Below are positions 7,161 through 36,900 of a stretch of DNA of 64,000 nt, piece by piece; positions within the stretch are counted from its first letter, which is position 1, and each line of letters starts with the position of its first letter. Made by a program: the position numbers and the translations under genes. The stretch comes from Acidimicrobiia bacterium (GTDB lineage Bacteria > Actinomycetota > Acidimicrobiia > Acidimicrobiales > Poriferisodalaceae), in contig JAJDZE010000004.1 of assembly GCA_022824805.1 (NCBI GenBank), positions 3,577 to 67,576 on the forward strand. Direction: 5' to 3'. The notes below the pieces were generated by a model. The model did not search any database and was not told the DNA's origin. It was given only the letters and a program-made list of their open reading frames with translations.

Positions 7161-8333
7161 TCAGCGACTTCGCTGTCGGGGGCGGGCCGTCGGGGACTCG
7201 GTGCCGAGGCCTCGCCCGCCGGGCTCGGGCGCTCGGCCGGCGGGAACGTGCTGGAACTCGCGGTTCACCCTGCGGACTGCCGGTGTGATGGCCACGGCGT
7301 AGCCGACCAGAGCGAGCAGGACCCGGCGAGCCGGCAGGAGCACGAAGCAGATGGCCCACGCCGCGGCGAACCCAATGAGTCGTGGTTTCATCGCGGACAC
7401 GCGAGCGGACGGCTTGTCGTCGGGGCGGCCGAGCGGGAATCGCTTCGGCTTGATGAACCATCCATGGGCGAACAGCTGAGCGACGAAGTACGGCCAGAAG
7501 GCGTCTGGGGCGTCGAGTGGGGGATCGGTGTCCCAAGCGGCGTCGGTGTCGCTGGCTAGCCCGGCCCGGACGCGAGACCACACATGCGGGGCGGTGACTC
7601 GACCAGAAGCGCCACCGCGGTTCTGATGGGTCGGGCGACAGTGCCACCGGTACAGCACTCGGCCGTCCTGGGCCAAGGCCAGAACGCCGGCCTGGAAGAG
7701 GCCGTTTGGGTGCGACGACCAGTGTCGTTCCAGCACCCCGGTGTCGCCGATATAGAGGTCGAACCGGTCATTCTCACGGCATTCGTCGAGGATCTCGTGG
7801 TGCGGATCGCCGACCGCTTGATATTCCAGTTCCCATGTGTCCTGCGCTTCGCTCGCAAGACTCTGGGGTTCACTGGTGACGGCGAAGATCTCGCCGCCCG
7901 CGGCCCGGATCTCCTCGATGACTCCCGATTTGCCGAAGCCACGCAACTCGCGGCGGCATGGAGGTCACCACAGCCCGCGGTAGAACACCAAGACGACAAA
8001 CTTGTGCTTGTCGAGTTGGGCGTTGAGCCACCCGGTGCGTACTCCGATCGGCGGGTCGAGCAGCGGCGGGATCAGCGGATCGTCAACTTCGGCGGCCGAC
8101 ACTCGGAAGCCCTCAGCTGATCTTTCGATCACCACCTGCTCACGGGCACAGACGTCGCCGTCGCACAGCACCAAACCCAGTTCGAAGGACCCAGCTCGCG
8201 CTCGTGCCACGGTGTCCTCGGCGTCGATAACTCCGGTGATCTCGAAGTGAGACTCTCGCGTTGCGTTGATCCACTCGAGCGCGGCTTCCGAAGCGGCCTG
8301 AAGCTCAGTGGGGATTTCTTCGCTCACGTTCAT
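7161..8333 (-). CDS. PRX_like2 (AhpC/TSA-type) thiol oxidoreductase, probable selenoprotein with in-frame UGA (Sec) at 7967-7965; C-terminal membrane segment
   Basis: ORFs 7965..8333 and 7161..7946 are in the same frame, separated only by TGA at 7967-7965. Read-through gives KFVVLVFYRGLW-U-PPCRRELRGFGKSGV..., the FYRG.WCP.C redox motif with TGA at the first Cys. The track start of the lower ORF is an artificial TTG. A stem-loop follows the TGA. Confidence 0.65.
7938..7957 (-). promoter_or_regulatory. Candidate bacterial SECIS hairpin of selenoprotein 1
   Basis: mRNA reads UGA CCUCCAU GCCGC(C)GC GAGUU GCGUGGC: 7 bp (one G-U, one bulged C) and a 5-nt loop starting with G. The stem begins 8 nt after the UGA and the loop 15 nt after it. 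Folded by eye only. Confidence 0.4.
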
Positions 8334-9391: not shown

Positions 9392-10057
9392 CTAGAAGAC
9401 GGGGAAGATGGTTCCTGTTGAGCGTTCGGTTCGGGTCAGGGCGTAGAGGACGCCCCAGTCGCCGTTGCGGTCTCGGGCGATGTTGATGCAGATGTCGATG
9501 ATGATCGCTGCGCCCTCTGGGTCGGTGGCTGGGCGGGGCTGGCCGATGCTGACGGCAAGGTCGTCGAGATGGAGGAGCACTTCGATCAGCCTGGTGCGGC
9601 AGAAGTCGTCAAGCGTGAGGAGTCGGCCTCCCAGCGCGGCCACGAGGCGGTCGGCGGGTTCCTCGGCCAGCCGTGTTTCGAGGTCGGCGGCCAGTTGGAG
9701 GCATTTGGCAACGGTGGCTTCGTGACCGATGGCCGATTCGGTGGCGGAGACGTCCTTGATCTGGTCGTGGATGGGGGAGTCGACCGCGGCGTGAAAGTAG
9801 GTGACCGCCGTGAGCAAGTCGCCGTCGGGGCGCCGGTCGGGCGGGGTGCGGTCGAGGTAGGCGATGGTGGCGCCGGCGGCGCGTACGAGGTGGGCCGAGA
9901 GCGCCCCGACCGTCATACCGTCAAGAGCCGAAGGCTGGTCCCACCGTTCTGCTGCGGCCGGAGTGGCGATGAGTTCGGTTGCTTGGGCGACAGCCTCGAC
10001 CACGAGCGCTCTGACCCGGGCCGAGTCGTTCGACGGTTCGGTGGCGGGCGTGCTCAT
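9392..10057 (-). CDS. Maleylpyruvate isomerase-family mycothiol-dependent enzyme (DinB/TIGR03083-like)
   Basis: N-terminal WDQPSALDGMTVGALSAHLV pattern typical of the actinobacterial DinB-like MDMPI_N domain. Confidence 0.65.
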   Translation of the reverse strand: MSTPATEPSNDSARVRALVVEAVAQATELIATPAAAERWDQPSALDGMTVGALSAHLVRAAGATIAYLDRTPPDRRPDGDLLTAVTYFHAAVDSPIHDQIKDVSATESAIGHEATVAKCLQLAADLETRLAEEPADRLVAALGGRLLTLDDFCRTRLIEVLLHLDDLAVSIGQPRPATDPEGAAIIIDICINIARDRNGDWGVLYALTRTERSTGTIFPVF

Positions 10058-10069
10058 GTCAGATCTCCT

Positions 10070-11413
10070 TCAGCGGGGGCGGGGGTAGGTGGGGTGCAGG
10101 TGGCGTTGGCCGGGGCCGAAGAAGTTCTCCCGGAAGGTGGTGCCCTCGTAGCTGGTGCGGAACCGGCCTCGCCGCTGGAGCTCGGGCACGAGGAAGTCGA
10201 CGATCTGGGAGAAACCCCAGGGGACGGGTGCCGTTGTCACGTTGAATCCGTCGACTCCTGTGGTCTCCATGAACGCCTCGAGCTGGTCGGCGACAGTGCT
10301 GGGCGAACCCACGAACCCCAGCCCGCCCGCGGTGTCGGACAGCCGCCGGGCGACATCGCCGACGGTCCAGACCTTGTCGGGGTCCTCCAGCTTCCAGCGC
10401 TCGACCTGGGTGCGGATCGCGTTCGCCTGGATGTCGTCGATGGGCGTGTCGGGCGGGTGGCCGCCCAGGTCGATGCCCGTCCAGCCGCAGTACAGGGCCA
10501 GGTAGCCGTCGACCGAGAACAGCCGTGACCACTCGTCGCGCATCGCCCGCGCCTCGGCGTCGGTCTCGGCAACCACCACCCGCGCCACCTGCAAGGCCCG
10601 GATGTGCTCGGGGTCGCGGCCGGCCGCTGCCGCCTGCTCGCGCAGCGACGCCACGACGGCGGCGCCCTTGTCGTTGCCCGGCACCGACATGAACACGACC
10701 TCGCCGGTGTTGGCTGCGAACTCGACGCCGCGTGCCGAGTTCCCCGCCTGGTACAGCACCGGCGTGCGCTGCGGCGAGGGCTCGACCATGTGTGGGCCTT
10801 GCACCGTGAACCAGTCGCCGGCATGGTCGATCTCGTGCACCTTGGCCGGGTCCGTGAACGTGTCGGCGGCGGCATCGCGCACGATCGCCCCCTCGTCCCA
10901 GCTCTGCTCCCACAGCTTCAGGCAGACATCGACGTACTCGTCGGCCCGGTCGTACCGGGTGTCGTGGGCGAGGATCTGACCGAGCCCTTGACGTTCGGCA
11001 TCGGACAGGTACGAGGTCACGATGTTCCAGCCGACACGGCCGCCGGTGAGGTGGTCGAGCGTCGAGAACAGCCGGGCCGTGTGGTACGGCGCGTGGTGGC
11101 TCGTTGAGAAGGTCACGGCGAAGCCAAGGTGCTCGGTGCATGCCGCCAGCGCCGGGATCAGCAGCGTGGGGTCGATGCCGGGAATCTGGACCGCGCCGCG
11201 CAACGCCGCCTCGCGACTCTCCCCGTACACGTCGTAGGTGCCCAGCACATCTGCGAAGAAGATCCCGTCGAAGCAGCCCCGCTCCAAGGTGCGAACCAGG
11301 TCCTGCCACCAGCTCAGCGTCCGGTACCCCCACGACGTCTCGTCGGCAGGGTGCTTCCACATCCCCTTGATCTGATGATTCGGAGACGCCTGGATGAATG
11401 CGCTCAGGTGCAT
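10070..11413 (-). CDS. NtaA/SnaA/DmoA-family FMN-dependent LLM monooxygenase
   Basis: MHLSAFIQASPNHQIKGMWKHP...GRVGWNIVTSY...VLYQAGNSARG is typical of the nitrilotriacetate monooxygenase component A family. ATG at 11413 chosen because the longer ORF would overlap vapC. Confidence 0.85.
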   Translation of the reverse strand: MHLSAFIQASPNHQIKGMWKHPADETSWGYRTLSWWQDLVRTLERGCFDGIFFADVLGTYDVYGESREAALRGAVQIPGIDPTLLIPALAACTEHLGFAVTFSTSHHAPYHTARLFSTLDHLTGGRVGWNIVTSYLSDAERQGLGQILAHDTRYDRADEYVDVCLKLWEQSWDEGAIVRDAAADTFTDPAKVHEIDHAGDWFTVQGPHMVEPSPQRTPVLYQAGNSARGVEFAANTGEVVFMSVPGNDKGAAVVASLREQAAAAGRDPEHIRALQVARVVVAETDAEARAMRDEWSRLFSVDGYLALYCGWTGIDLGGHPPDTPIDDIQANAIRTQVERWKLEDPDKVWTVGDVARRLSDTAGGLGFVGSPSTVADQLEAFMETTGVDGFNVTTAPVPWGFSQIVDFLVPELQRRGRFRTSYEGTTFRENFFGPGQRHLHPTYPRPR

Positions 11414-14754: not shown

Positions 14755-15366
14755 TCAGGCGTCGAGCCCCAACGGGAGTGTGGCGAGGAGTTGGGTTATG
14801 CAGTCTTGTAGAGGTTGGGTGGTGTCGATGGTGATCTCGGGTGCGGGCGGTGGCTCGTAGGGGGCGGAGATGCCGCTGAAGTCGGGGATCTCGCCAGCGC
14901 GGGCCTTGCTGTAGAGGCCCTTGGGGTCGCGGGCCTCGCAGACTTCGAGCGGGGTGTCGACGAATACTTCGATGAAGGCGCCTTCGGGATGGATCGCCCG
15001 TACTTGCTCACGGTCGGCCACGTAGGGGGAGATAAACGCCGTCAGTACGACGATGCCGGCGTCTTGGAACAGGCGGCACACTTCGCCGATGCGGCGGATG
15101 TTCTCGGTGCGGTCGTCTGGCGAGAAGCCGAGATCGCGGTTGAGGCCGAAGCGGACGTTGTCGACGTCGAGCACGTAGGCAGCGATACCGCGTTCGAGCA
15201 GGACCGCTTCGAGGGCGAATGCGAGGGTGGACTTGCCGCTGCCCGAGAGCCCAGTGAACCAAACCGTCACCGCACGGTGGCCGAAGTGTGCCTCGCGGTC
15301 GGCGCCGGTGACGTGCCCCTCGGCGCGCACGATGTTGCGCGACACCGGCCGTTCTGCGGCGCTCAT
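14755..15366 (-). CDS. cysC: Adenylylsulfate (APS) kinase
   Basis: [43 protein letters not shown] and LTAFISPY are a near-canonical CysC pattern. Confidence 0.9.
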
Positions 15367-15475
15367 AGCGTGCTCGGGCCGTGGGACGGACGTGCCGAGA
15401 GGCGCAGCAGGGACCTGAGCGGTTGGCGGGCGAGGCGCACGAGAGCGGGAGGCATGTGGGGGTGAGGCGAGAGGT

Positions 15476-17419
15476 TCATGCGTTGGGAAGCCCTCGCAGG
15501 AAGCCGCGCTCGGTCAGCTTGCGCACGATGGCGTCGATGCACTCGTCGACGTCCTGGGCTGAGGTGTCGACGCGCAGGTCGGCATCGGTCGGCTTGTCGA
15601 AGTCTGCGGAGACGCCGGGGAATCGGGGGATCTCGCCGCTGTCGGCCATCGCGTACAGGCCGTGGGGGTCACGCTCGCGGCACACCTCGATGGGTGTGTC
15701 CACGAAGACCTCGACATAGCGGTCCACGCCCACTAGGTCACGGGCTCGTTGCCGCACGTCACGGTCGGGGGCCACCATTGCGGCGATCGCGATCAGGCCC
15801 TGGCCGTTGACGAGCCGTGCCACTTCCGAAACCCGGCGCAGGTTCTCCGAGCGTTCCTGGGTGCTGAAGCCCAAGTCACGGGAGATGCCCATGCGCACGT
15901 TTTCGCCGTCGAGACGGATCGACACCTTGCCCCGATCGAACAGCTCCCGCTCGAGTGCTGTGGCAAGGGTGGACTTGCCGGCGGCCGTGAGCCCCGTGAG
16001 CAGGATGGTGCACGGCTGCTGGCCGAAGCGGATGGCCCGCTCCGCATCGCTGATCTCCGAGCGCTGGCGAACCAGTGCCGCATCGGGTGTGCGATCCCAC
16101 GCAGATGCCGCGCCCAGGATCATGCCTGCGCCCACTGTCGCGTTCGTGAGCCGGTCGACGAGCACGAACGAACCGGTCGCCCGGTTGGCGCTGTAGGGGT
16201 CGAAGGCGAGCTCCCGGTCTGAGGTGATGACGCAGTGCCCGATGTCGTTGAGCCCGAGTCCCGGGGCCTGCTCGTGTGCGCCGGTATTGATGTCGACGCG
16301 GTGCCGGAGGCTCCGGATGGCGCAGTTGGAAACCGTGTTGGCCGTCTGCAGCAGGTAGGAGCTGCCGGGCTCGGCGCCGGTTTCCGACATCCACACCACC
16401 ATGGCGTCGAGGTCGTGCGCTCGCTGCGGTTCGCTTCCTGGGGTCACCAGCAGATCGCCCCGGCTGACGTCGATGTCGTCGTCGAGCGTCACCGTGACCG
16501 CCCGACCCGGCCCGGCCACATCGAGGTCGCCGTCGAAGGTCGCAATCCGCTCCACCGTCGAGCTGAGCCCCGACGGCAGCGCCACCACCTCATCACCGGG
16601 CCGGAGCACTCCCGAGGCGATGGTGCCCGCGTACCCGCGGAAGTCTGCATCGGGGCGGGAGACCAGCTGCACCGGCATGCGGAAGTGCTCCAGGTCGACG
16701 CTGGCATCGATGTCCACCGTCTCGAGGTGCTCCAGCAGCGGCGGACCGTCGAACCAGCCCAGATTGCCGCTGGCGTCGACGACGTTGTCACCTGCCAGCG
16801 CGGACATCGGCAGGAAGTACGGCTGTCCGAACCCGAGCTCCTTGGCGAATGAGCGGTAGTCCTCGCAGATCTCGGTAAAGCGATCCTGCGACCAGCCGAC
16901 GAGATCCATCTTGTTGACCGCCACGACGACTCGACCGATGCCCAGCAGGCTGGCGATGTAGCTGTGGCGCTTGGTCTGTGCCAGCACGCCGTGGCGGGCG
17001 TCGATGAGGATGACCGCCAGATCGCAGGTCGACGCACCCGTCGCCATGTTGCGGGTGTACTGGGGGTGCCCCGGAGTGTCGGCGATGATGAACGTGCGGC
17101 GGGCCGTGGAGAAGTAGCGGTAGGCCACGTCGATGGTGATGCCCTGCTCGCGCTCGGCGCGCAGGCCGTCCATGAGCAGAGCCAAGTCGACCCCGTCGCC
17201 CGCCGAGCCGTGGGCAGCCGAGTCGGCTTCGAGGCTGGCGAGCACGTCCTCGTAGATCAACTGCGCGTCGTGCAGCAGCCGCCCGATCAGCGTCGATTTT
17301 CCGTCGTCGACGCTGCCGCACGTCAGCAGGCGCAGCAGGTCCTTCTGCCGATGGGAGGCCAGGTACGCCTCGACATCCGACACGTCGAAGCCGTCACGAG
17401 CGGGCAGCTCGGCGGCCAT
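15476..17419 (-). CDS. cysNC: Sulfate adenylyltransferase subunit 1 fused to an APS-kinase-like domain (CysNC)
   Basis: GTPase motifs [14 protein letters not shown] and NKMD, plus a C-terminal kinase-like domain [14 protein letters not shown]...DGENVR...[14 protein letters not shown]. Confidence 0.9.
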
Positions 17420-18342
17420 CAGAAGTACCCCTCACGCTTCTTCTGCTCCATGGAGCCCGACTGGTCGAAGTCGATCACCCGGCCTTCCCGCTCGGAGCGG
17501 GTTGCCACCAGCATCTCGTCGATGATCTCGGGCAGCGTGGTGGCCGTCGATTCGATGGCCCCCGACAGCGGGTAGCAGCCCAATGTGCGGAAACGCACCA
17601 GCCGCTGTTCGGCCACCTCGCCCTCGTCGAACACGAACCGGTCGTCGTCCACCATGATCAGCACGCCGTCGCGTTCCACCACCGGCCGTTCGGCCGCAAA
17701 GTACAGCGGCACGATGGGGATCTGCTCGACGTGGATGTACTGCCACACGTCGAGCTCGGTCCAGTTGCTCATCGGGAACACCCGGATCGACTCGCCCTGG
17801 TTGACCCGGCCGTTGTAGAGATTCCACAGCTCGGGCCGCTGGTTCTTGGGATCCCAGCGATGATGGGCATCGCGGAAGCTGAACACCCGCTCCTTGGCCC
17901 GCGACTTCTCCTCGTCGCGCCGGGCGCCGCCGAACGCCGCATCGAACCGGCCGGCGTCGAGCGCCTGGCGCAGCGCCTGAGTCTTCATGATGTCGGTGTA
18001 GTTCTTCGACCCGTGGTCGAAGGGGTTGATGCCCTGCGCGACCCCCTCCGCGTTGGTGTGCACGATCAGCTCGAAGCCGATCTCGTCGGCCATGCGCTGG
18101 CGGAAGACGATCATCTCGCGGAACTTCCACGTCGTGTCCACGTGCAGCAGCGGGAACGGGATCTTGCCGGGGAAGAAGGCCTTGCGGGCGAGATGCAGCA
18201 GCACCGAGGAGTCCTTGCCGATCGAGTACAGCATGACCGGCCGCTCGCACTGGGCGACCACTTCGCGCATGATCCCGATCGCCTCGGATTCGAGCTGCTG
18301 CAGGTGGGTCAGCCGCAGCTCGGCGGGCAGCGTCGCGCTCAT
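17419..18342 (-). CDS. cysD: Sulfate adenylyltransferase subunit 2
   Basis: Start [28 protein letters not shown] at 18342. Contains [15 protein letters not shown] (PAPS reductase/ATP-PPase fold). The stop overlaps the cysNC ATG (TGATG). Confidence 0.9.
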
Positions 18343-20798
18343 TGCGTACCCCTCGATTGCTCCACCATGGCCTGGCTGGTTTCCCACAGCATGGCCCCGT
18401 TTGCGGGGTCCGCGGCGCTCTCGGACACCTGCTTGCGGTGCATCAGGTGCAGGTAGAGCCCGGTGGAACTGCCGGCCTCGGGCGCGCAGCACAACCAGAC
18501 GACGGGCTCGACGGCTTCTTCGGGCGACCGGAACAGCCGTCGAAGCAGCGGGTCGACGACCGATCGGAGAGGCGCAGGCGCACCGCGGGTGATGTTCGTG
18601 GCGACGCCGCCCGGGCACAGTGCATGCACCGCCACCTCGACCCCGTCACCGTCGGGGCCGTCGCCGTCGAGGCCCTCCACGCCATCGCCATCGCCAACGC
18701 CAACGTCGCCTTCGCCGGGGCGATGCAGCCGACGCGACAGCTCCGTGGCGTAGGTGCACAGCACAAGCTTGCTCAAGCCGTAGTGCCGCATGCTGTCTTT
18801 CATGCCATAGGGGGCGAACTCGCCGAGGTGATCGAAATCGATGGCGGCACTGGATCGGTGGGCTTCCGAAGAGACGAACACGATCCGTGGCGGGTCACCC
18901 TCTGGAACTGCCGGAACAACGACACCGTCGGACAGCCAGCGGTCGATCATCACCCGGTTGGCCAGGAAATGGACGGCGAACATCTCGTCGTAGCCCTGCG
19001 CTGTCTGCCTCGCAGCGGGGGTCATGAGGCCCGCGTTCATCAGCGCGATGTCGACGCGGACGCCACGATCACGCAGTTCGTCGCAGCAGCGGTGCACCGA
19101 CCGGAGATCGGCAAGGTCGACCTCGACCAGCTCCACGGTCTCCGAACCGGATTCGCGCGTGATCTCCTCGCAGATGCCGTGATGGCCGGGGCGGCAGGCC
19201 AGGATCATGCGGCCGCCGCGCCGCGCGAGCTCTACAGCGGCTGCCCTGCCGAGGCCGCTGTTGGCCCCGGTCACCAGGCAGGTCTTGCCGTCGATCCTCA
19301 CGTCGTCGGGGACTGGCTCGATGTCTGGCGACTTGGGATTTCGGAGGTCACGGAAGGCGGTTGCGACAGCACCGATGAAGCCGGTGTCGCCTATAGCGCG
19401 TGCCGGCTGTTCGCCGACCCAAGGCGTCTCGGCAGAGCGAACCACGACGGCCTGCTCACCAGCCGCGTGCATCTTGCGCTCTGTCGAAGGTGGCGACGGG
19501 GGATCGGCGCTGGGCGACGGGTGCTGGTCGTCTTCGAACTGCACGGCAAAGGCGTCGCGGTATGCAGCGAACGTCTCGTCGATGTCGGGTCCCGTCAGCC
19601 CGAAGTCTTCGAGCCGGTAGTCGTGCTTGCCGAATCGGTTCTGAGGGTTCGCCGCCATGAACTGCGCGGCCGCCCGCTCGGCCGTCTCGTCGAAGCCGAT
19701 GCCGGCCGTCTCGCAGATCTGCCGAGCTTCGTTGATCGGATCGGCGATCAGGTCGTAGTACGACACATCGACAAATGAAGCACCGCCAGGCTCGTCGGCC
19801 GGCTGCCTCGCCTGAGCTTCGGCCCGAGCCTGCATGGCCCGCTCGACCATCCGGTGCGTCTTGTAGTGCCAGTGCCGCCCGATCTCGACAGCATCGACCG
19901 AATCGCTGAAGATGCCGTGGCCGTGGGCGACCATGCTGCAGAACGACGCCAACGTGACACGGGGGTCACGGTGGGCTTGGACCACGGTGGCGCCCCCGAA
20001 CACCCTGCAGAACGCGTCGAGGAACTCCAGGTGATGCGGCGTCTTGAGCACCCACGCGCCGGCAGGCCGCTGCCATGCCAGCACCTGCAGGACCCGGCGG
20101 AGGAACTCGTAGTTCTGGGTGTGGTCTTGTTCTTCCAGCCAGCGGGAATAGCTCGGCACCGTCATGGTGGCTTCGGCTGTCTGGCTCATGAAGTTCAGGT
20201 CGAGCAGCAGGACGTCCTCTTCGGCCTGGTCGTGGCCCACCGGATGGATCGCCTGAAAGTCGGGTGCCAGGTACGAGACGGTTCGCTGGGCGAGCATCGC
20301 ACGCCACCTGCGGGACCGCTCGGAGCGTTCTGCGGTCTCGCCCCTCGCCACCGGAACGAGCGCTTCGGCGCCGGTGATGCCCCGGATCTGCGGGTGCGAG
20401 CACAACAGCCGCTGCAACAGGGTTGTGCCGGCGCGCTGCAATCCGGTGATCAGGATGATCGTGCCCAGATCGATGTTCTCGATCTCGGGGTGCCGCGTCA
20501 CCAAATCCTGAATCCGCAAGCGCTGCACCAGCGCATCGGTGAGCCGTGATTTCTGGATCAGGCGGCCGGCCGCACTCAGGCGGGCTTCGGCGTTGATCGA
20601 GGTGACCAGCACCTCGAGAGCTTCGGCGTGACCGTCGTCGCCGAAGTCGCTGAGACCGGTCTTGCGCCGTGCGGCGCTGCGCAGTGCGCCGATCTCGAGA
20701 CGTTCTGACAGTCCAAAGTTCGCCCCGGCCCTGCCGAGCCGGTTGAAGGCTCGCACCCCCAGCGGCCGGTAGGGGTGCTCGTAGTCCGTGGAAGTCAC
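18339..20798 (-). CDS. Sulfotransferase (N-terminal) fused to a short-chain dehydrogenase/reductase (C-terminal)
   Basis: The N-terminal half has [19 protein letters not shown] (5'-PSB-like P-loop of sulfotransferases). The C-terminal half has [21 protein letters not shown] and YGLSKL (SDR). ATGA overlap with cysD. Confidence 0.8.
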
Positions 20799-34583: not shown

Positions 34584-35609
34584 ATGTCGAAACCCGCGCT
34601 TGGACTGTTGCTTGGCTTTGAGGACACGATGGCCGACTTTGTCGAGCTGGCCCGTGAGGGCGAGGCCGCGGGGATGGACTCGATGTACACGGTCGAGGCC
34701 GGGCGCAGCGCGTTCGTGTCGGCTGCCGCGGTCATCGCGGCGACCGAGCGGGTCACCGTCGGCACCTACATCGCGAATGCGTATGCCCGGGAGCCGTGGC
34801 TCACGGCGATCGCTGCCCGAGATCTCGACGAGATGAGCGGCGGGCGGTTCACCCTCGGCCTCGGCACGGGCAACCGCCACTTCAACGAGTGGTACATGGG
34901 CGTCGACGACTTCCGGCCGCTCGGCAAGCTGCGCGACTACATCGAGATCGTGCGCGGCGCCGTGGCTGGCCGTGCGGGAGAGCCGGTGCGCTACGAGGGC
35001 GAGCACCACCGGATCCGCTGGCGGGCGAGCTGGGAGCCGACCCGGCCGTCGATACCGGTGTACCTGTCGGCATCGGGACCCAAGATGGTGCGGCTCGCGG
35101 GCGAGGTGGCCGACGGGGTCGGCGTCGGCGTGATGTCGTCGGTCGAATTCATGCGCGACATCGTCCGCCCCGCAGCCCAGCAGGCCGCCGGGGAGGCAGG
35201 CCGAGACCCCGACGGCGTGGGGTTCCTGATGGGGTCGTTCCTGAGCGTCAACGACGACGAAGGGCTGGCCCGCAATGCCGCCAAGGCCACCATCTGCGGG
35301 CTGTTCCACCCGGTACCTCACCCGTACTACGACTCACAGCTGCGTCAGCTCGGCTACGCCGAGTTTGCTGACGCCGCAACCCGGCTGATGCCCGAAGGCC
35401 ACATGCGCGAGGCGATCAGCCTGGTGCCCGACGAGGTGGTCGACACCATGACCATCACCGGGACGCCCGCCCAGTGCGCCAACCGCATCGCCGACTACAG
35501 CGGCCTGATCGCAGAGATCATCCTGTTCCGAGTCCCGCAACGCACCGACCGGCCAGGCCTCGCCGGCTACGAGTCCATGTTCGAGGTCATCTCACTCGCC
35601 AGCACCTGA
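34584..35609 (+). CDS. LLM class (F420/FMN-dependent) oxidoreductase
   Basis: GMDSMYTVEAGRSAF...GRFTLGLGTG is typical of the luciferase-like family. Confidence 0.8.
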   Translation: MSKPALGLLLGFEDTMADFVELAREGEAAGMDSMYTVEAGRSAFVSAAAVIAATERVTVGTYIANAYAREPWLTAIAARDLDEMSGGRFTLGLGTGNRHFNEWYMGVDDFRPLGKLRDYIEIVRGAVAGRAGEPVRYEGEHHRIRWRASWEPTRPSIPVYLSASGPKMVRLAGEVADGVGVGVMSSVEFMRDIVRPAAQQAAGEAGRDPDGVGFLMGSFLSVNDDEGLARNAAKATICGLFHPVPHPYYDSQLRQLGYAEFADAATRLMPEGHMREAISLVPDEVVDTMTITGTPAQCANRIADYSGLIAEIILFRVPQRTDRPGLAGYESMFEVISLAST

Positions 35610-36764
35610 GTCGGTACCGGCACGGCGGTCGATCAGACGTTGGAAGTGGTGTGCCCCGTTCATCGCGGGCACCCGGCCGACGCCGGGGCCCATGTCGCCG
35701 AGCACCGGGAAGCCCGCCTCGACGCGGAAGCTGAAGGGCATCGACTCGGGGAGGAAGCACTCGACGTCGTCACAGGCTTGCCAGCGGACCAGGCCGCTGA
35801 TGGTGACGAAGCGCCCGTCGTCGTCCTTCTGCATGTTCCGTGCGTTCTGTGCAACCGGCAGCCGCAGGACGACATCGCCCTCGTACACGGCGAGGGTGTC
35901 GCCCGAACCAGACAGCGTCAACGGTGAGGTCGGCGGCATCACCGGCTCGTAGGACAGGATCCCGTCGTTGTCGTCGAGCTCGATTGCGGCGGCCACCAAG
36001 CCGTCGGGTACGGGCTCGCTGTACAGATGCTGACCCTCGGGAACCCGGAACGTGGCGACGATCTGGCGTGTGACGCCCATCGGCAGGCGATCGCCGTCGA
36101 TGGCCACGTCCACTGACATCCGATCGGGCGGCCGCTCGATTTCCGGTACATCGAACTCGGTGCCCAGGGCTGCAGCGAGCAGCTGCTCGGGGCCCGGCCG
36201 GATGGCGAAGTTGTGCTCGAAGAACTTCGCCACAACGATGCCGTCTGCATCGACGACGTACGACCCCGGGAACGGCAGGCCGTACCACGGGTGGTCATCG
36301 GGCGGGATCAGCGTGTTGAGAATCCCGAACGACCGGATCACCTCGCTGTCGGGATCCGACAGCAGCGTGAACGTGGTGCCGTGAGCCTCCGCGTAGTCAG
36401 CCAGCGCATCAGGTTCGTCGTAGCTCAGCGCATACAGCCGGACTCCCGCTGCCCGGTAGGCGTCCATGCCTCGTTCCAGCTCGACCAGCTGGGTGCGGCA
36501 GGGCGGTCACCACACAGCCGAGCGATAGAACACCACCACCGCCGGCTGTCCATCGCGGTCGTCGTGCAGGTCCAGCTGACGACCGGTGTGGTCGGTGGCC
36601 ACGATGTCGGGCAGTCGGGTACCGACCTCAGGACCAGTGGGGAAGTCTCCACGCGGGATCCGTCGGCTTCCATGACCTGGCGCCTCAGGCATGTTGAAGC
36701 CTTCGACGTCCTCGTAGTACGGCCCGCTTGTCGGGCCGCCCCTGGTGTCGAGTTCGATTTCCAT
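35592..36764 (-). CDS. PRX_like2 thiol oxidoreductase with DsbD-N-like C-terminal domain, probable selenoprotein with in-frame UGA (Sec) at 36509-36507
   Basis: ORFs 36507..36893 and 35592..36467 share a frame, separated by TGA plus 13 sense codons. Read-through gives PAVVVFYRSAVW-U-PPCRTQLVELERGMDAYRAAGVRLYALSYDEP... A perfect hairpin follows the TGA. The C-terminus VRWQACDDVECFLPE resembles a DsbD N-terminal-type domain. Start at 36764 (MEIELD) chosen over 36893, whose extension looks non-coding. Confidence 0.65.
36467..36500 (-). promoter_or_regulatory. Candidate bacterial SECIS element of selenoprotein 2
   Basis: mRNA reads UGA CCGCCC UGCC GCAC CCAGCU GGUCG AGCUGG AACGA GGCA. It has a perfect 6-bp upper stem, a 5-nt loop GGUCG (G in the first positions, loop starting 20 nt after the UGA), a 4-bp lower stem and an internal loop. 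Folded by eye only. Confidence 0.5.
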
Positions 36765-36900
36765 TTCCCGTTCCGATCGTCTTCCCGCAAGTGCCGAGTC
36801 TCGGCATCGATCATGGCACGCCGATCTTCGACGCTCCCGGTTCGCATGGCTCGCCCCGATCGCGGGGGTTGCCGTCCGGAGTGTTGCGGTCATCTGAGGG

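What the first reader, a model, noticed from the sequence alone, without database searches (positions are those of the whole stretch)
35592..36764. Second, independent W-U-P-P-C in-frame TGA with a textbook hairpin: paralogous selenoprotein candidate fused to a DsbD-N-like domain
ORF 36507..36893 ends ...PAVVVFYRSAVW-TGA and continues in frame as PPCRTQLVELERGMDAYRAAGVRLYALSYDEPDAL..., joining ORF 35592..36467. That lower ORF otherwise lacks the whole redox-active N-terminus.

The mRNA after the UGA forms a perfect 6-bp stem CCAGCU/AGCUGG capped by GGUCG, with the loop starting 20 nt after the UGA. A 4-bp lower stem (UGCC/GGCA) and an internal loop follow, which is very similar in layout to known bacterial SECIS elements.

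Finding the same TGA-for-Cys substitution in two diverged paralogues 28 kb apart argues strongly against a random nonsense mutation. The C-terminal domain (VRWQACDDVECFLPE) suggests an electron-relay role.
Basis: partly seen in the sequence, partly recalled or inferred. Interest (0 to 1): 0.75.

Follow-up and report, generated by a model that had tools for sequence, protein, structure and literature searches.

The report
Known-family selenoprotein redoxin, DsbD-N fusion
This is one 390-codon gene whose in-frame TGA almost certainly encodes selenocysteine in the active site of a redox enzyme; its family was already listed in marine selenoprotein surveys, but public gene calls still split it into two fragments.

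Summary
Window 35592..36764 (-) is a single 390-codon gene with an in-frame TGA at 36507..36509. One AhpC/TSA (Prx-fold) domain runs straight across the TGA, and a DsbD_N-like domain follows it.

- **TGA conservation:** all 80 related loci fetched, from at least four phyla and down to 40% identity, keep TGA in RSAVW-TGA-PPCR[TS]QLVEL.
- **Cys counterparts:** distant two-domain homologues (28-38% identity) carry Cys at that column.
- **Hairpin:** the 6-bp stem 13 nt after the TGA is paired in 65 of 65 distinct sequences, shows compensatory changes at two pairs, and always has G-U in the loop. It meets every criterion of the published bacterial SECIS model. Seven Cys-form genes lack it.

The family is already known. 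Exact orthologues appear as 'Prx-like 1' (UxxC) selenoproteins in Zhang & Gladyshev 2008, so this is a new member of a known kind. Two points are modestly new: the papers read do not mention the DsbD_N fusion, and every close public gene call is truncated at the TGA.

The Sec machinery of this genome could not be checked here. The electron relay between the two domains is inferred, not shown. Interest is about 0.3.

The parts
35592..36764 (-). Full coding sequence: 390 codons plus a TGA terminator. It encodes the two-domain selenoprotein (Prx-fold redoxin plus a DsbD_N-like domain).
   Evidence: Read-through translation. The conserved start MEIELDTRGG and conserved residues on both sides of the TGA appear in 80 loci. 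Public gene calls split it into an 85-aa ORF and a 291-aa ORF.
36507..36509 (-). In-frame TGA (codon 86), read as selenocysteine. It is the first residue of the W-U-P-P-C redox motif.
   Evidence: TGA is present in 80 of 80 related loci. It aligns with Cys in 12 of 14 distant full-length homologues and with the N-terminal Cys of the WCxPC motif of ResA.
36476..36492 (-). SECIS upper hairpin: 6-bp stem CCAGCU/AGCUGG (36487..36492 pairs with 36476..36481) and loop GGUCG (36482..36486).
   Evidence: All cells are paired in 65 distinct sequences. Compensatory changes occur at two pairs: CG to GC in 25 sequences and GC to AU in 4. Loop positions G31 and U32 are invariant. Third-codon-position entropy is 0.48 bits here against 1.33 gene-wide. 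Seven Cys-form genes lack the hairpin.
36467..36500 (-). Extended SECIS region, including the lower stem UGCC (36497..36500) / GGCA (36467..36470) and an internal loop.
   Evidence: The MFE fold of the window sequence contains it. Across orthologues only 78.5% of lower-stem cells pair, so this part is weakly supported.
36228..36626 (-). AhpC/TSA (Prx-fold, thioredoxin-like) redoxin domain, residues 47-179. It spans the TGA.
   Evidence: Pfam PF00578 matches at E 1.4e-27, covering profile positions 1-123 of 124. The nearest PDB sequences are ResA and Bcp. The AF2 model of Cys homologue P0145 matches BcpB, Bcp4 and AhpE with TM about 0.8.
35742..36074 (-). DsbD_N-like domain, residues 231-341.
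   Evidence: Pfam PF11412 scores 35.1 bits against a cut-off of 25, E 1.5e-08. It is all beta-strand in the confident model of the Cys homologue. A profile of this domain finds nDsbD structures only weakly, E 0.7-1.1.
35757..35774 (-). Cys331-x4-Cys336 (CDDVEC within the WQACDDVEC motif), the putative second redox centre.
   Evidence: Both Cys are invariant in the 19-sequence C-terminal-domain alignment A5 and at least 90% conserved in A3. They align to YQGC(103)ADAGFC(109)YPPE of E. coli nDsbD; the residue numbering is from my own knowledge.
35622..35711 (-). Conserved C-terminal tail FPVLGDMGPGVGRVPAMNGAHHFQRLIDRR, specific to the Sec clade. Function unknown.
   Evidence: The motif DMGPGxG[RK]VPxMNGAxH is nearly invariant in A1. 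It is absent from the Cys-form homologues.

Best explanation
Window 35592..36764 (-) is one gene for a soluble 390-residue selenoprotein.

Decoding: the UGA at codon 86 is recoded to selenocysteine. A bacterial SECIS hairpin lies inside the coding sequence 13 nt downstream (6-bp stem, 5-nt loop with an invariant G-U). By analogy with E. coli fdhF, this hairpin would recruit SelB carrying Sec-tRNA(Sec) to the ribosome.

Chemistry: Sec86 and Cys89 form a U-x-x-C redox centre at the start of helix 1 of a Prx-fold, thioredoxin-like domain. This is the position of the nucleophilic Cys in ResA, CcmG and TlpA-type thiol-disulfide oxidoreductases. A C-terminal DsbD_N-like beta-sandwich carries a second centre, Cys331-x4-Cys336, which corresponds to the Cys103/Cys109 pair of nDsbD.

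Most likely mechanism: an internal or intermolecular dithiol/selenylsulfide relay between the two centres. This mirrors the known nDsbD to CcmG/DsbC electron transfer, but with both partners in one polypeptide that has no export signal.

Shown here: one continuous coding region, a conserved recoded TGA, a conserved and covarying hairpin, a Sec/Cys pair with homologues, and the two domains.

Inferred only: Sec insertion itself, the direction of electron flow, the substrate (protein disulfide or peroxide), the upstream reductant, and the cytoplasmic location.
For: (1) TGA conservation. TGA is kept in 80 of 80 loci from Acidimicrobiia, Acidobacteriota, Dehalococcoidia, Gammaproteobacteria and others, down to 40% identity, in the motif RSAVW-TGA-PPCR[TS]QLVEL.

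(2) One translated unit. The 85 codons upstream and the 13 codons between the TGA and the first Met are conserved as protein. Their synonymous sites vary freely: third-position entropy is 1.73 and 1.91 bits at the invariant Pro-Pro. A single Pfam AhpC-TSA match covers residues 47-179 across the TGA.

(3) Sec/Cys pair. Full-length two-domain homologues at 28-38% identity carry WCP[YF]C at that column. ResA WCKPC aligns to W-U-P-P-C.

(4) SECIS. The upper stem is paired in 65 of 65 distinct sequences. The CG to GC swap occurs in 25 sequences and couples a synonymous third position (ACC to ACG) to a non-synonymous Glu to Gln change. The GC to AU swap occurs in 4 sequences, with GU in 3 more. No shuffle (0 of 500) reached the observed covariation score, and structures slid by 1-3 columns pair in only 25-38% of cells. 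G31 and U32 of the loop are invariant. All four criteria of the published bSECIS model are met. Synonymous entropy falls to 0.48 bits in codons +5 to +10, against 1.33 gene-wide.

(5) Negative control. Seven Cys-form genes (TGT or TGC) form only 2-5 of the 6 pairs, with hairpin energies from 0 to -6.0 kcal/mol against a mean of -8.7. This holds even where the amino-acid motif QLVEL is kept.

(6) TGA is still a stop. It terminates this same gene in the window and in most orthologues, so there is no genome-wide reassignment.

(7) Prior literature. Exact orthologues are listed as selenoproteins ('Prx-like 1', UxxC) in PMC2398784 Dataset S1. The family is rated 'predicted with high confidence' in PMC13188914.

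(8) Second domain. DsbD_N scores above the Pfam cut-off, the Cys pair is conserved and aligns to the nDsbD active-site motif. A confident two-domain model of a Cys homologue was obtained (pLDDT 95.7, pTM 0.91).
Against: - No tRNA-Sec, selA, selB or selD was found in the window or in 1.4 Mb of related loci. The rest of the genome could not be searched, so the Sec machinery of this organism is unverified.
- In the single window sequence the hairpin is not statistically unusual (z = -1.14; 4.7% of TGAs have a comparable hairpin).
- The lower stem is only 78% conserved.
- No experiment shows selenium in any member of this subfamily.
- The DsbD_N assignment rests on a moderate Pfam score and a weak PDB profile match (E about 1). 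The Foldseek list was taken up by Prx-fold hits and says nothing about the second domain.
- The structure model is of a 38%-identical Cys homologue, not of this protein.
Confidence: 0.9

Rival explanations
1. The TGA is a nonsense mutation or assembly error, and the locus is a pseudogene of a Cys-containing redoxin.
For: All public gene calls stop at the TGA and restart at the next Met. A single sequence cannot separate the two cases.
Against: 80 of 80 independent loci from several phyla have TGA at this codon and none has TGC or TGT. Both flanks are under protein-level purifying selection. An RNA hairpin covaries next to the TGA.
Confidence: 0.01
2. There are two real genes. An 85-residue peptide ends at the TGA and a separate 291-residue protein starts at Met100. 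The hairpin would then be an intercistronic or translational-coupling structure.
For: This is how gene callers annotate the locus. A Met lies 13 codons after the TGA in nearly all orthologues.
Against: One Pfam domain model runs continuously through the TGA. The 13 codons between the TGA and the Met encode the invariant PPCR[TS]QLVEL, with free synonymous variation at Pro-Pro. L054 has Gln, not Met, at that position. Either fragment alone would lack half of the thioredoxin fold and the active-site motif. Cys homologues are single polypeptides.
Confidence: 0.03
3. The UGA is read through, but not as selenocysteine. It could be suppressed by a near-cognate tRNA (Trp or Cys) stimulated by the downstream hairpin, or read under a lineage-specific code change.
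For: The Sec machinery was not found in the sequence available. One distant homologue has Trp (WWPFC) and another Ser (WSPYC) at this column.
Against: TGA also terminates this gene and is used as an ordinary stop, which excludes reassignment. The position is a redox-active Cys in homologues. The hairpin meets the SelB-type bSECIS consensus, including the invariant G-U in the loop. The class Acidimicrobiia includes a lineage with selA, selB, selC and selD (bioRxiv 10.64898/2026.04.03.716425). The same clade is catalogued as a selenoprotein.
Confidence: 0.05
4. The hairpin is a by-product of the conserved amino-acid motif QLVEL rather than a selected RNA element.
For: QLVEL is also conserved in Cys-form proteins such as P0176, P0188 and P0197, so part of the nucleotide conservation is protein-driven.
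Against: Cys-form genes that encode the same QLVEL use other synonymous codons and do not form the stem (3-4 of 6 pairs, energies 0 to -1.3 kcal/mol). Synonymous sites are frozen only in TGA-containing genes. The CG to GC swap pairs a silent change with a Glu to Gln replacement.
Confidence: 0.03

Closest known systems
'Prx-like 1' / 'Prx-like thiol:disulfide oxidoreductase' selenoproteins (PF00578, UxxC), from Zhang & Gladyshev 2008 (PMC2398784), Zhang et al. 2005 (PMC1088965) and the 2026 review (PMC13188914)
   Same: The Pfam domain, the UxxC motif and the marine distribution all match. Exact orthologues are in the published list: JCVI_READ_1095516003056 (...FTRSAVWUPPCRTQLVELEKGM...) and JCVI_READ_1092963245529, which includes the C-terminal ...WQTCDDDVCDLPQ domain.
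   Different: None of the papers read here discusses the DsbD_N-like C-terminal domain, the Sec-clade C-terminal tail, or the absence of Cys orthologues above about 40% identity for this subfamily. Prx-like 1 is a broad bin; the first candidate at 7965..7967 falls in it too, at only 34% identity.
ResA / CcmG (DsbE) / TlpA-type thiol-disulfide oxidoreductases
   Same: ResA gives the best PDB sequence match (4nmu, E 2.5e-09). Its W-C-x-P-C motif aligns with W-U-P-P-C, placing Sec on the N-terminal, nucleophilic Cys (the role of that Cys is from my own knowledge). CcmG is a natural redox partner of nDsbD (my own knowledge).
   Different: Those proteins are membrane-anchored or periplasmic, use Cys, and are single-domain. 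This protein has no signal peptide or transmembrane segment, uses Sec, and carries its own DsbD_N-like domain. By fold, the homologue model is closest to BCP and AhpE peroxiredoxins.
N-terminal domain of DsbD (nDsbD, PF11412; PDB 1L6P, 1JPE)
   Same: The Pfam match is above the gathering score. The domain is all beta-strand. The conserved YQAC-x4-C-x-x-P motif aligns to YQGC-ADAGF-CYPP of nDsbD.
   Different: The Cys spacing is C-x4-C instead of C-x5-C. The domain is not attached to the DsbD membrane and thioredoxin-like domains. It is predicted to be cytoplasmic here, whereas many Cys-form relatives have signal peptides. Sequence similarity to solved nDsbD structures is marginal (E about 1).
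E. coli fdhF-type bacterial SECIS and the bSECISearch consensus
   Same: A hairpin inside the ORF just after the UGA. It has a 6-bp upper stem, a 5-nt loop with G then G/U in the first positions, 20 nt between the UGA and the loop, and an MFE of -17.9 kcal/mol. All consensus criteria are met.
   Different: The primary sequence is unrelated to fdhF, and the upper stem has no bulged U. SelB binding has not been tested. Rfam has no model that detects it.
SelL and SelL-related redox proteins (NCBIfam NF040769)
   Same: A weak match over the redoxin core (46.7 bits, residues 52-151), with a Prx-like fold and a redox motif at the same place.
   Different: The score is far below the family cut-off of 120, so this is not a member. 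SelL has UxxU (PMC2398784).

Membership tests
Bacterial selenoprotein gene (Sec-UGA plus bSECIS) | In-frame UGA inside a continuous, conserved coding region, kept in orthologues | tested here: met
   80 of 80 loci keep TGA, with conserved protein sequence on both sides. One Pfam domain spans it.
Bacterial selenoprotein gene (Sec-UGA plus bSECIS) | Sec/Cys pair: homologues carry Cys at the UGA position | tested here: met
   12 of 14 full-length distant homologues have Cys at the column. Their codons are TGT or TGC in the 7 genes fetched.
Bacterial selenoprotein gene (Sec-UGA plus bSECIS) | bSECIS consensus: 3-9 nt loop, 4-16 bp upper stem, G in the first two loop positions, 16-37 nt from the UGA, MFE <= -7.5 kcal/mol (PMC13188914) | tested here: met
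   Loop GGUCG, 6 bp, 20 nt spacing, -17.9 kcal/mol. The hairpin is conserved with compensatory changes and absent from Cys-form genes.
Bacterial selenoprotein gene (Sec-UGA plus bSECIS) | Genome encodes tRNA-Sec (selC), SelA, SelB and SelD | not testable with these tools
   None were found in the 64-kb window or in 80 loci; the one SelB-like hit is CysN/CysC. Indirect support: another Acidimicrobiia lineage has the full set.
Bacterial selenoprotein gene (Sec-UGA plus bSECIS) | Selenium demonstrated in the protein | not testable with these tools
   This needs 75Se labelling or mass spectrometry.
Prx-like 1 / Prx-like thiol:disulfide oxidoreductase selenoproteins | [quoted passage not shown] | tested here: met
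   PF00578 at E 1.4e-27, motif U-P-P-C. In the alignment to Bcp 2cx3, Sec falls on the Ser of FSPVC and Cys89 on the final Cys of that motif, which I take to be the peroxidatic Cys.
Prx-like 1 / Prx-like thiol:disulfide oxidoreductase selenoproteins | Orthology to sequences in the published family list | tested here: met
   JCVI_READ_1095516003056 and JCVI_READ_1092963245529 under '#Prx-like 1' share the N-terminal region, the SAVWUPPCR[TS]QLVEL motif and the C-terminal domain.
DsbD N-terminal domain (PF11412) | Profile match above the Pfam gathering score | tested here: met
   35.1 bits against a cut-off of 25, residues 231-341, profile positions 18-112 of 119. The same domain is precomputed for nearly all homologues.
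DsbD N-terminal domain (PF11412) | Redox-active Cys pair in the Y-Q-x-C...C-x-P-P region | tested here: met
   WQAC-DDVE-C-FLPE; both Cys are invariant in A5 and align to nDsbD YQGCADAGFCYPPE. The spacing is one residue shorter.
DsbD N-terminal domain (PF11412) | Immunoglobulin-like beta-sandwich fold matching solved nDsbD structures | tested here: inconclusive
   The domain is all beta-strand in a confident model of the Cys homologue. The Foldseek list was filled by Prx-fold hits to the other domain, and the sequence-profile match to 1L6P/1JPE is weak (E 0.7-1.1).
DsbD N-terminal domain (PF11412) | Periplasmic location as part of the DsbD electron-transfer chain | tested here: not met
   There is no signal peptide or hydrophobic segment (maximum Kyte-Doolittle 19-residue mean 0.95). 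No DsbD membrane domain is conserved in the neighbourhood. Many Cys-form relatives do have signal peptides.
True peroxiredoxin (Prx/BCP) | PxxxT/SxxC active site with a peroxidatic Cys | tested here: inconclusive
   The fold of the homologue model is closest to BcpB, Bcp4 and AhpE. The motif is W-U-P-P-C, with Sec on the T/S position and Cys89 on the position I take to be the peroxidatic Cys. The conserved Pro and Arg were not checked, so peroxidase activity can be neither assigned nor excluded.
SelL-related redox protein (NCBIfam NF040769) | Score above the NCBIfam cut-off | tested here: not met
   46.7 bits against a cut-off of 120.

The most novel reading that the evidence does not exclude
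The RSAVW-U-PPCR[TS]QLVEL clade may be a functionally distinct and so far undescribed subfamily. It would be an obligately Sec-dependent redox module with no export signal. In it, a CcmG/ResA-like redoxin has been fused to its usual periplasmic electron donor (an nDsbD-like domain) and has gained a conserved C-terminal docking tail (DMGPGxGRVPxMNGAxH). The clade has spread between marine and sponge-associated bacteria of at least four phyla. This would be the DsbD-to-CcmG hand-off rebuilt as one selenoenzyme in a new compartment, with a substrate of its own.
Probability: 0.3. Interest if true: 0.45.

Novelty: new member of a known kind. Interest (0 to 1): 0.3.

Why it matters
Biologically this is an expected kind of gene. 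UxxC Prx-like redoxins are among the most abundant selenoproteins in marine metagenomes.

The practical value is for annotation. All 120 closest public protein entries listed, including RefSeq entries for complete Candidatus Poriferisodalis genomes, are truncated at the TGA. No NCBIfam model recognises the family. Databases therefore hold two fragments in place of one 390-residue enzyme.

The conserved motif and hairpin defined here would allow an automatic fix. The window carries two such genes, which marks this sponge-associated Acidimicrobiia lineage as a likely selenocysteine user.

The fusion of a Sec-redoxin with an nDsbD-like domain in a protein with no export signal is a compact model for studying the hand-off between these two folds. 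It is a modest point, not a surprise.

Tried and rejected
- **Sec machinery.** ARAGORN on the window and on 80 loci found no tRNA-Sec. That hit is a CysN/CysC GTPase-kinase fusion (ORF 15476..17419), not SelB.
- **Rfam.** No family matched at gathering thresholds. My understanding is that Rfam holds no bacterial SECIS model that would detect this element.
- **Conserved neighbours.** Synteny (xanthine-dehydrogenase-family gene upstream, luciferase-like oxidoreductase downstream) holds only within Poriferisodalis-like genomes. An all-against-all clustering of flanking ORFs found no partner gene shared across phyla, so no operon clue to function emerged.
- **Other TGA-interrupted genes.** A GC3-based scan of the window was too unspecific in this 66.6% GC DNA. 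The W-TGA-P-P site at about 53004 lies in a junk frame.
- **Protein searches.** The 304 residues after the TGA were used instead.
- **Structure.** Single-sequence AF2 of P0145 gave an unusable model (pLDDT 44.7). It was repeated with a 150-sequence alignment. Model coordinates are not exposed, so the distance between the two redox centres could not be measured. Foldseek returned only Prx-fold hits.
- **PDB sequence search.** phmmer with the C-terminal domain alone found nothing meaningful. A profile reached nDsbD only weakly.
- **Literature.** A search for 'Poriferisodalis' returned no paper.
Full report
**1. The observation**

On the minus strand, ORF 36507..36893 ends ...PAVVVFYRSAVW and is followed by TGA at 36507..36509. 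The same frame continues PPCRTQLVELERGMDAY... to a TGA terminator at 35592..35594.

Orthologues place the true start at the ATG at 36764 (MEIELDTRGG...). The gene is therefore 390 codons, and the finding's coordinates are exactly the CDS.

The hairpin CCAGCU-GGUCG-AGCUGG lies at 36476..36492, with 20 nt between the UGA and the loop. In this sequence a UGCC/GGCA lower stem flanks it.

A second W-TGA-P-P-C site lies at 7965..7967 (-), 28.5 kb away. Its redoxin core is 34% identical to this one over 92 residues.

Taken alone, the hairpin is not unusual. The fold z-score is -1.14. In this 66.6% GC window, 4.7% of all 1586 TGA triplets are followed by a hairpin that meets the bacterial SECIS consensus with six perfect pairs. 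The case rests on comparative evidence.

**2. One gene, not two**

A single Pfam AhpC/TSA match (E 1.4e-27) covers residues 47-179, running across codon 86. A DsbD_N match above the gathering score (35.1 bits against 25) covers residues 231-341.

The closest solved sequences are ResA-type thiol-disulfide oxidoreductases. Their W-C-x-P-C motif aligns to W-U-P-P-C.

All 120 best hits in the 5.8-billion-protein collection are 199-330 residues long and cover at most 75% of the query. They start at the first Met after the TGA. The public call for this very contig has an 85-residue ORF with no domain, followed by a 291-residue ORF.

**3. Conservation of the TGA**

A scan of one genome per GTDB species gave 238 relatives, of which the best 80 loci were kept. 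They come from:
- Candidatus Poriferisodalis and other Acidimicrobiia;
- Acidobacteriota (Candidatus Multivorans, Thermoanaerobaculia);
- Dehalococcoidia;
- Gammaproteobacteria (Azotimanducaceae, Pseudomonadales);
- a few others.

All 80 have TGA in the motif RSAVW-TGA-PPCR[TS]QLVEL, at protein identities from 95% down to 40%.

The 85 residues before the TGA are conserved as protein, for example FPTGPxVG. The Pro-Pro-Cys codons after the TGA are invariant as amino acids but vary freely at the third position (entropy 1.73 and 1.91 bits at the two Pro codons). Both sides are therefore translated.

TGA also terminates this gene in the window and in most orthologues. The in-frame TGA is thus a local recoding event, not a change of genetic code.

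**4. The Sec/Cys pair**

An exhaustive HMMER search with the 304 residues after the TGA found full-length homologues of 329-377 residues at 27-39% identity, with the same two domains. In the alignment, 12 of 14 carry Cys at the Sec column, as WCP[YF]C. One has Ser and one has Trp.

Many of these Cys forms have signal peptides. The Sec clade has no hydrophobic segment.

Many other cluster representatives start with M-TQLVELQ or M-ELQ, just after the motif. Sec forms therefore probably outnumber Cys forms in the wider family.

**5. The SECIS element**

I aligned 65 distinct sequences without gaps (alignment A2).

- All cells of the 6-bp upper stem are paired.
- The closing pair is C-G in 40 sequences and G-C in 25. 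This swap joins a silent ACC to ACG change to a Glu to Gln replacement.
- The fourth pair is G-C in 58 sequences, A-U in 4 and G-U in 3.
- By clade (reading), each swap occurred at least three times independently.
- No shuffle (0 of 500) reached the observed covariation score. Structures slid by 1-3 columns pair in only 25-38% of cells.
- The loop is GGUCG, CGUGG, CGUCG, AGUUG or CGUGC. G and U at loop positions 2-3 are invariant.
- All four criteria of the published bSECIS model are met: loop of 3-9 nt, stem of 4-16 bp, G in the first two loop positions, 16-37 nt spacing, and MFE at or below -7.5 kcal/mol (PMC13188914).
- Third-position entropy at conserved residues falls to 0.48 bits in codons +5 to +10, against 1.33 gene-wide.
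- The lower stem is only 78% paired and should be treated as optional.

As a negative control I fetched seven Cys-form genes with TGT or TGC at the site. At the equivalent columns they form 2-5 of 6 pairs, with hairpin energies from 0 to -6.0 kcal/mol against a mean of -8.7 for the Sec forms. This holds even where the protein motif QLVEL is kept, because they use other synonymous codons. The hairpin therefore goes with the TGA, not with the protein sequence.

**6. What could not be shown**

No tRNA-Sec, selA, selB or selD lies in the window or in the 1.4 Mb of related loci. The only SelB-like hit is CysN/CysC. The rest of the genome was out of reach.

A recent preprint reports selA, selB, selC and selD in all complete Actinomarina genomes, which belong to the same class, Acidimicrobiia. 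That is supportive but indirect.

**7. The second domain and the mechanism**

The C-terminal domain has an invariant Q-A-C-x4-C-x-x-P motif. A profile of the domain retrieves nDsbD structures only weakly (E about 1). It aligns the motif to YQGCADAGFCYPPE, which holds the redox-active Cys103/Cys109 pair of E. coli DsbD (residue numbering from my own knowledge).

An AlphaFold model of the Cys homologue P0145, built with 150 aligned sequences, is very confident (pLDDT 95.7, pTM 0.91). It shows a Prx-fold domain followed by an all-beta domain. Foldseek places the first domain nearest BcpB, Bcp4 and AhpE.

In E. coli, nDsbD reduces thioredoxin-fold partners such as CcmG and DsbC (established knowledge). 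The most economical reading is therefore a fused relay between C331/C336 and U86/C89. The direction, substrate and reductant are inferences.

No gene neighbour is conserved across phyla.

**8. Comparison with what is known**

Dataset S1 of Zhang & Gladyshev 2008 (PMC2398784) lists two exact orthologues under '#Prx-like 1' (pfam00578, UxxC, 225 GOS sequences):
- JCVI_READ_1095516003056 (MQIERDTRGAELGPNQ...FTRSAVWUPPCRTQLVELEKGM...);
- JCVI_READ_1092963245529 (FWUPPCRSQLVELQ...GEVLWQTCDDDVCDLPQ...).

The same section holds orthologues of the first candidate (YYRGLWUPPCRFELRSY). The family goes back to the 'Prx-like protein' of the Sargasso Sea study. The 2026 review rates it 'predicted with high confidence'.

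The fusions described in the 2008 paper do not include this one. 'DsbD' does not occur in the main text of the 2008 paper. In the review it occurs once, for an unrelated protein, TsoB. No NCBIfam model reaches its cut-off.

**9. Verdict**

This is a genuine selenoprotein gene of a known family: a new member, with an undiscussed domain fusion and a systematic annotation error in public databases. Interest is low to moderate (0.3).

Noticed in passing
window 7161..8333 (-), TGA at 7965..7967: The 'first candidate' is a second 390-codon Prx-like gene with FYRGLW-TGA-PPCRRELRGF. Pfam AhpC-TSA spans its TGA. Close orthologues with U at this position are in the same GOS 'Prx-like 1' list, for example JCVI_READ_1056998 and JCVI_READ_3057796. 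Its C-terminal half looks membrane-associated (a hydrophobic LIGFAAAWAICFVLLPA stretch), which differs from the DsbD_N fusion.
   Followed up: partly
window 35622..35711 (-), residues 352-381: The Sec clade has a nearly invariant C-terminal tail, DMGPGxG[RK]VPxMNGAxH. The Cys-form homologues lack it, and no Pfam family matched it. Its function is unknown; it may be a docking peptide.
   Followed up: no
L077 (NZ_CBDCEO010000013.1, match 10001..10894): One Candidatus Poriferisodalis genome carries a second, divergent copy of this selenoprotein (43% identity, FFRSAVW-TGA-PPCRTQLVELQ). By its SECIS variant (GCAGCU...AGCUGC) it is closer to the gammaproteobacterial type. The same genome also has the usual copy (L015). 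The 71% identity between the Acidimicrobiia and Acidobacteriota copies also suggests horizontal transfer among marine or sponge-associated bacteria.
   Followed up: no
L027, L028, L029 (Candidatus Multivorans): In these loci the reading frame after the TGA runs for 428 codons instead of about 296. This points to a C-terminal extension or a fusion with the next gene.
   Followed up: no
P0134, P0172, P0182 (distant homologues): P0134 (616 aa) holds two tandem copies of the redoxin-DsbD_N unit, the second with W-S-S-Y-C. P0172 has W-S-P-Y-C. P0182 has W-W-P-F-C; its Trp codon would be TGG, one base from TGA. These are natural variants or sequencing errors at the Sec/Cys column.
   Followed up: no
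L080 and L004 (Poriferisodalis MAG chromosomes): L080 has only 215 codons after the TGA. L004 has a scrambled N-terminal region before GFNMPEPPG. These are probably frameshifts in long-read MAG assemblies rather than real gene decay. P0112 (223 aa, annotated 'DsbD domain-containing protein') may be another cut-down call of this kind.
   Followed up: no
window 14755..20798 (-): This is a sulfate-activation cluster, judged from sequence motifs by eye. It holds a stand-alone APS kinase-like ORF (14755..15366), a CysN/CysC fusion (15476..17419), a CysD-like ORF (17419..18618), and an 819-residue ORF that appears to fuse a sulfotransferase-like domain to a short-chain dehydrogenase (18339..20798).
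   Followed up: no
L084 1483..1815 (-): In one Cys-form locus (P0158) a thioredoxin gene lies immediately downstream in convergent orientation. It is a possible hint at the reductant, seen only once.
   Followed up: no
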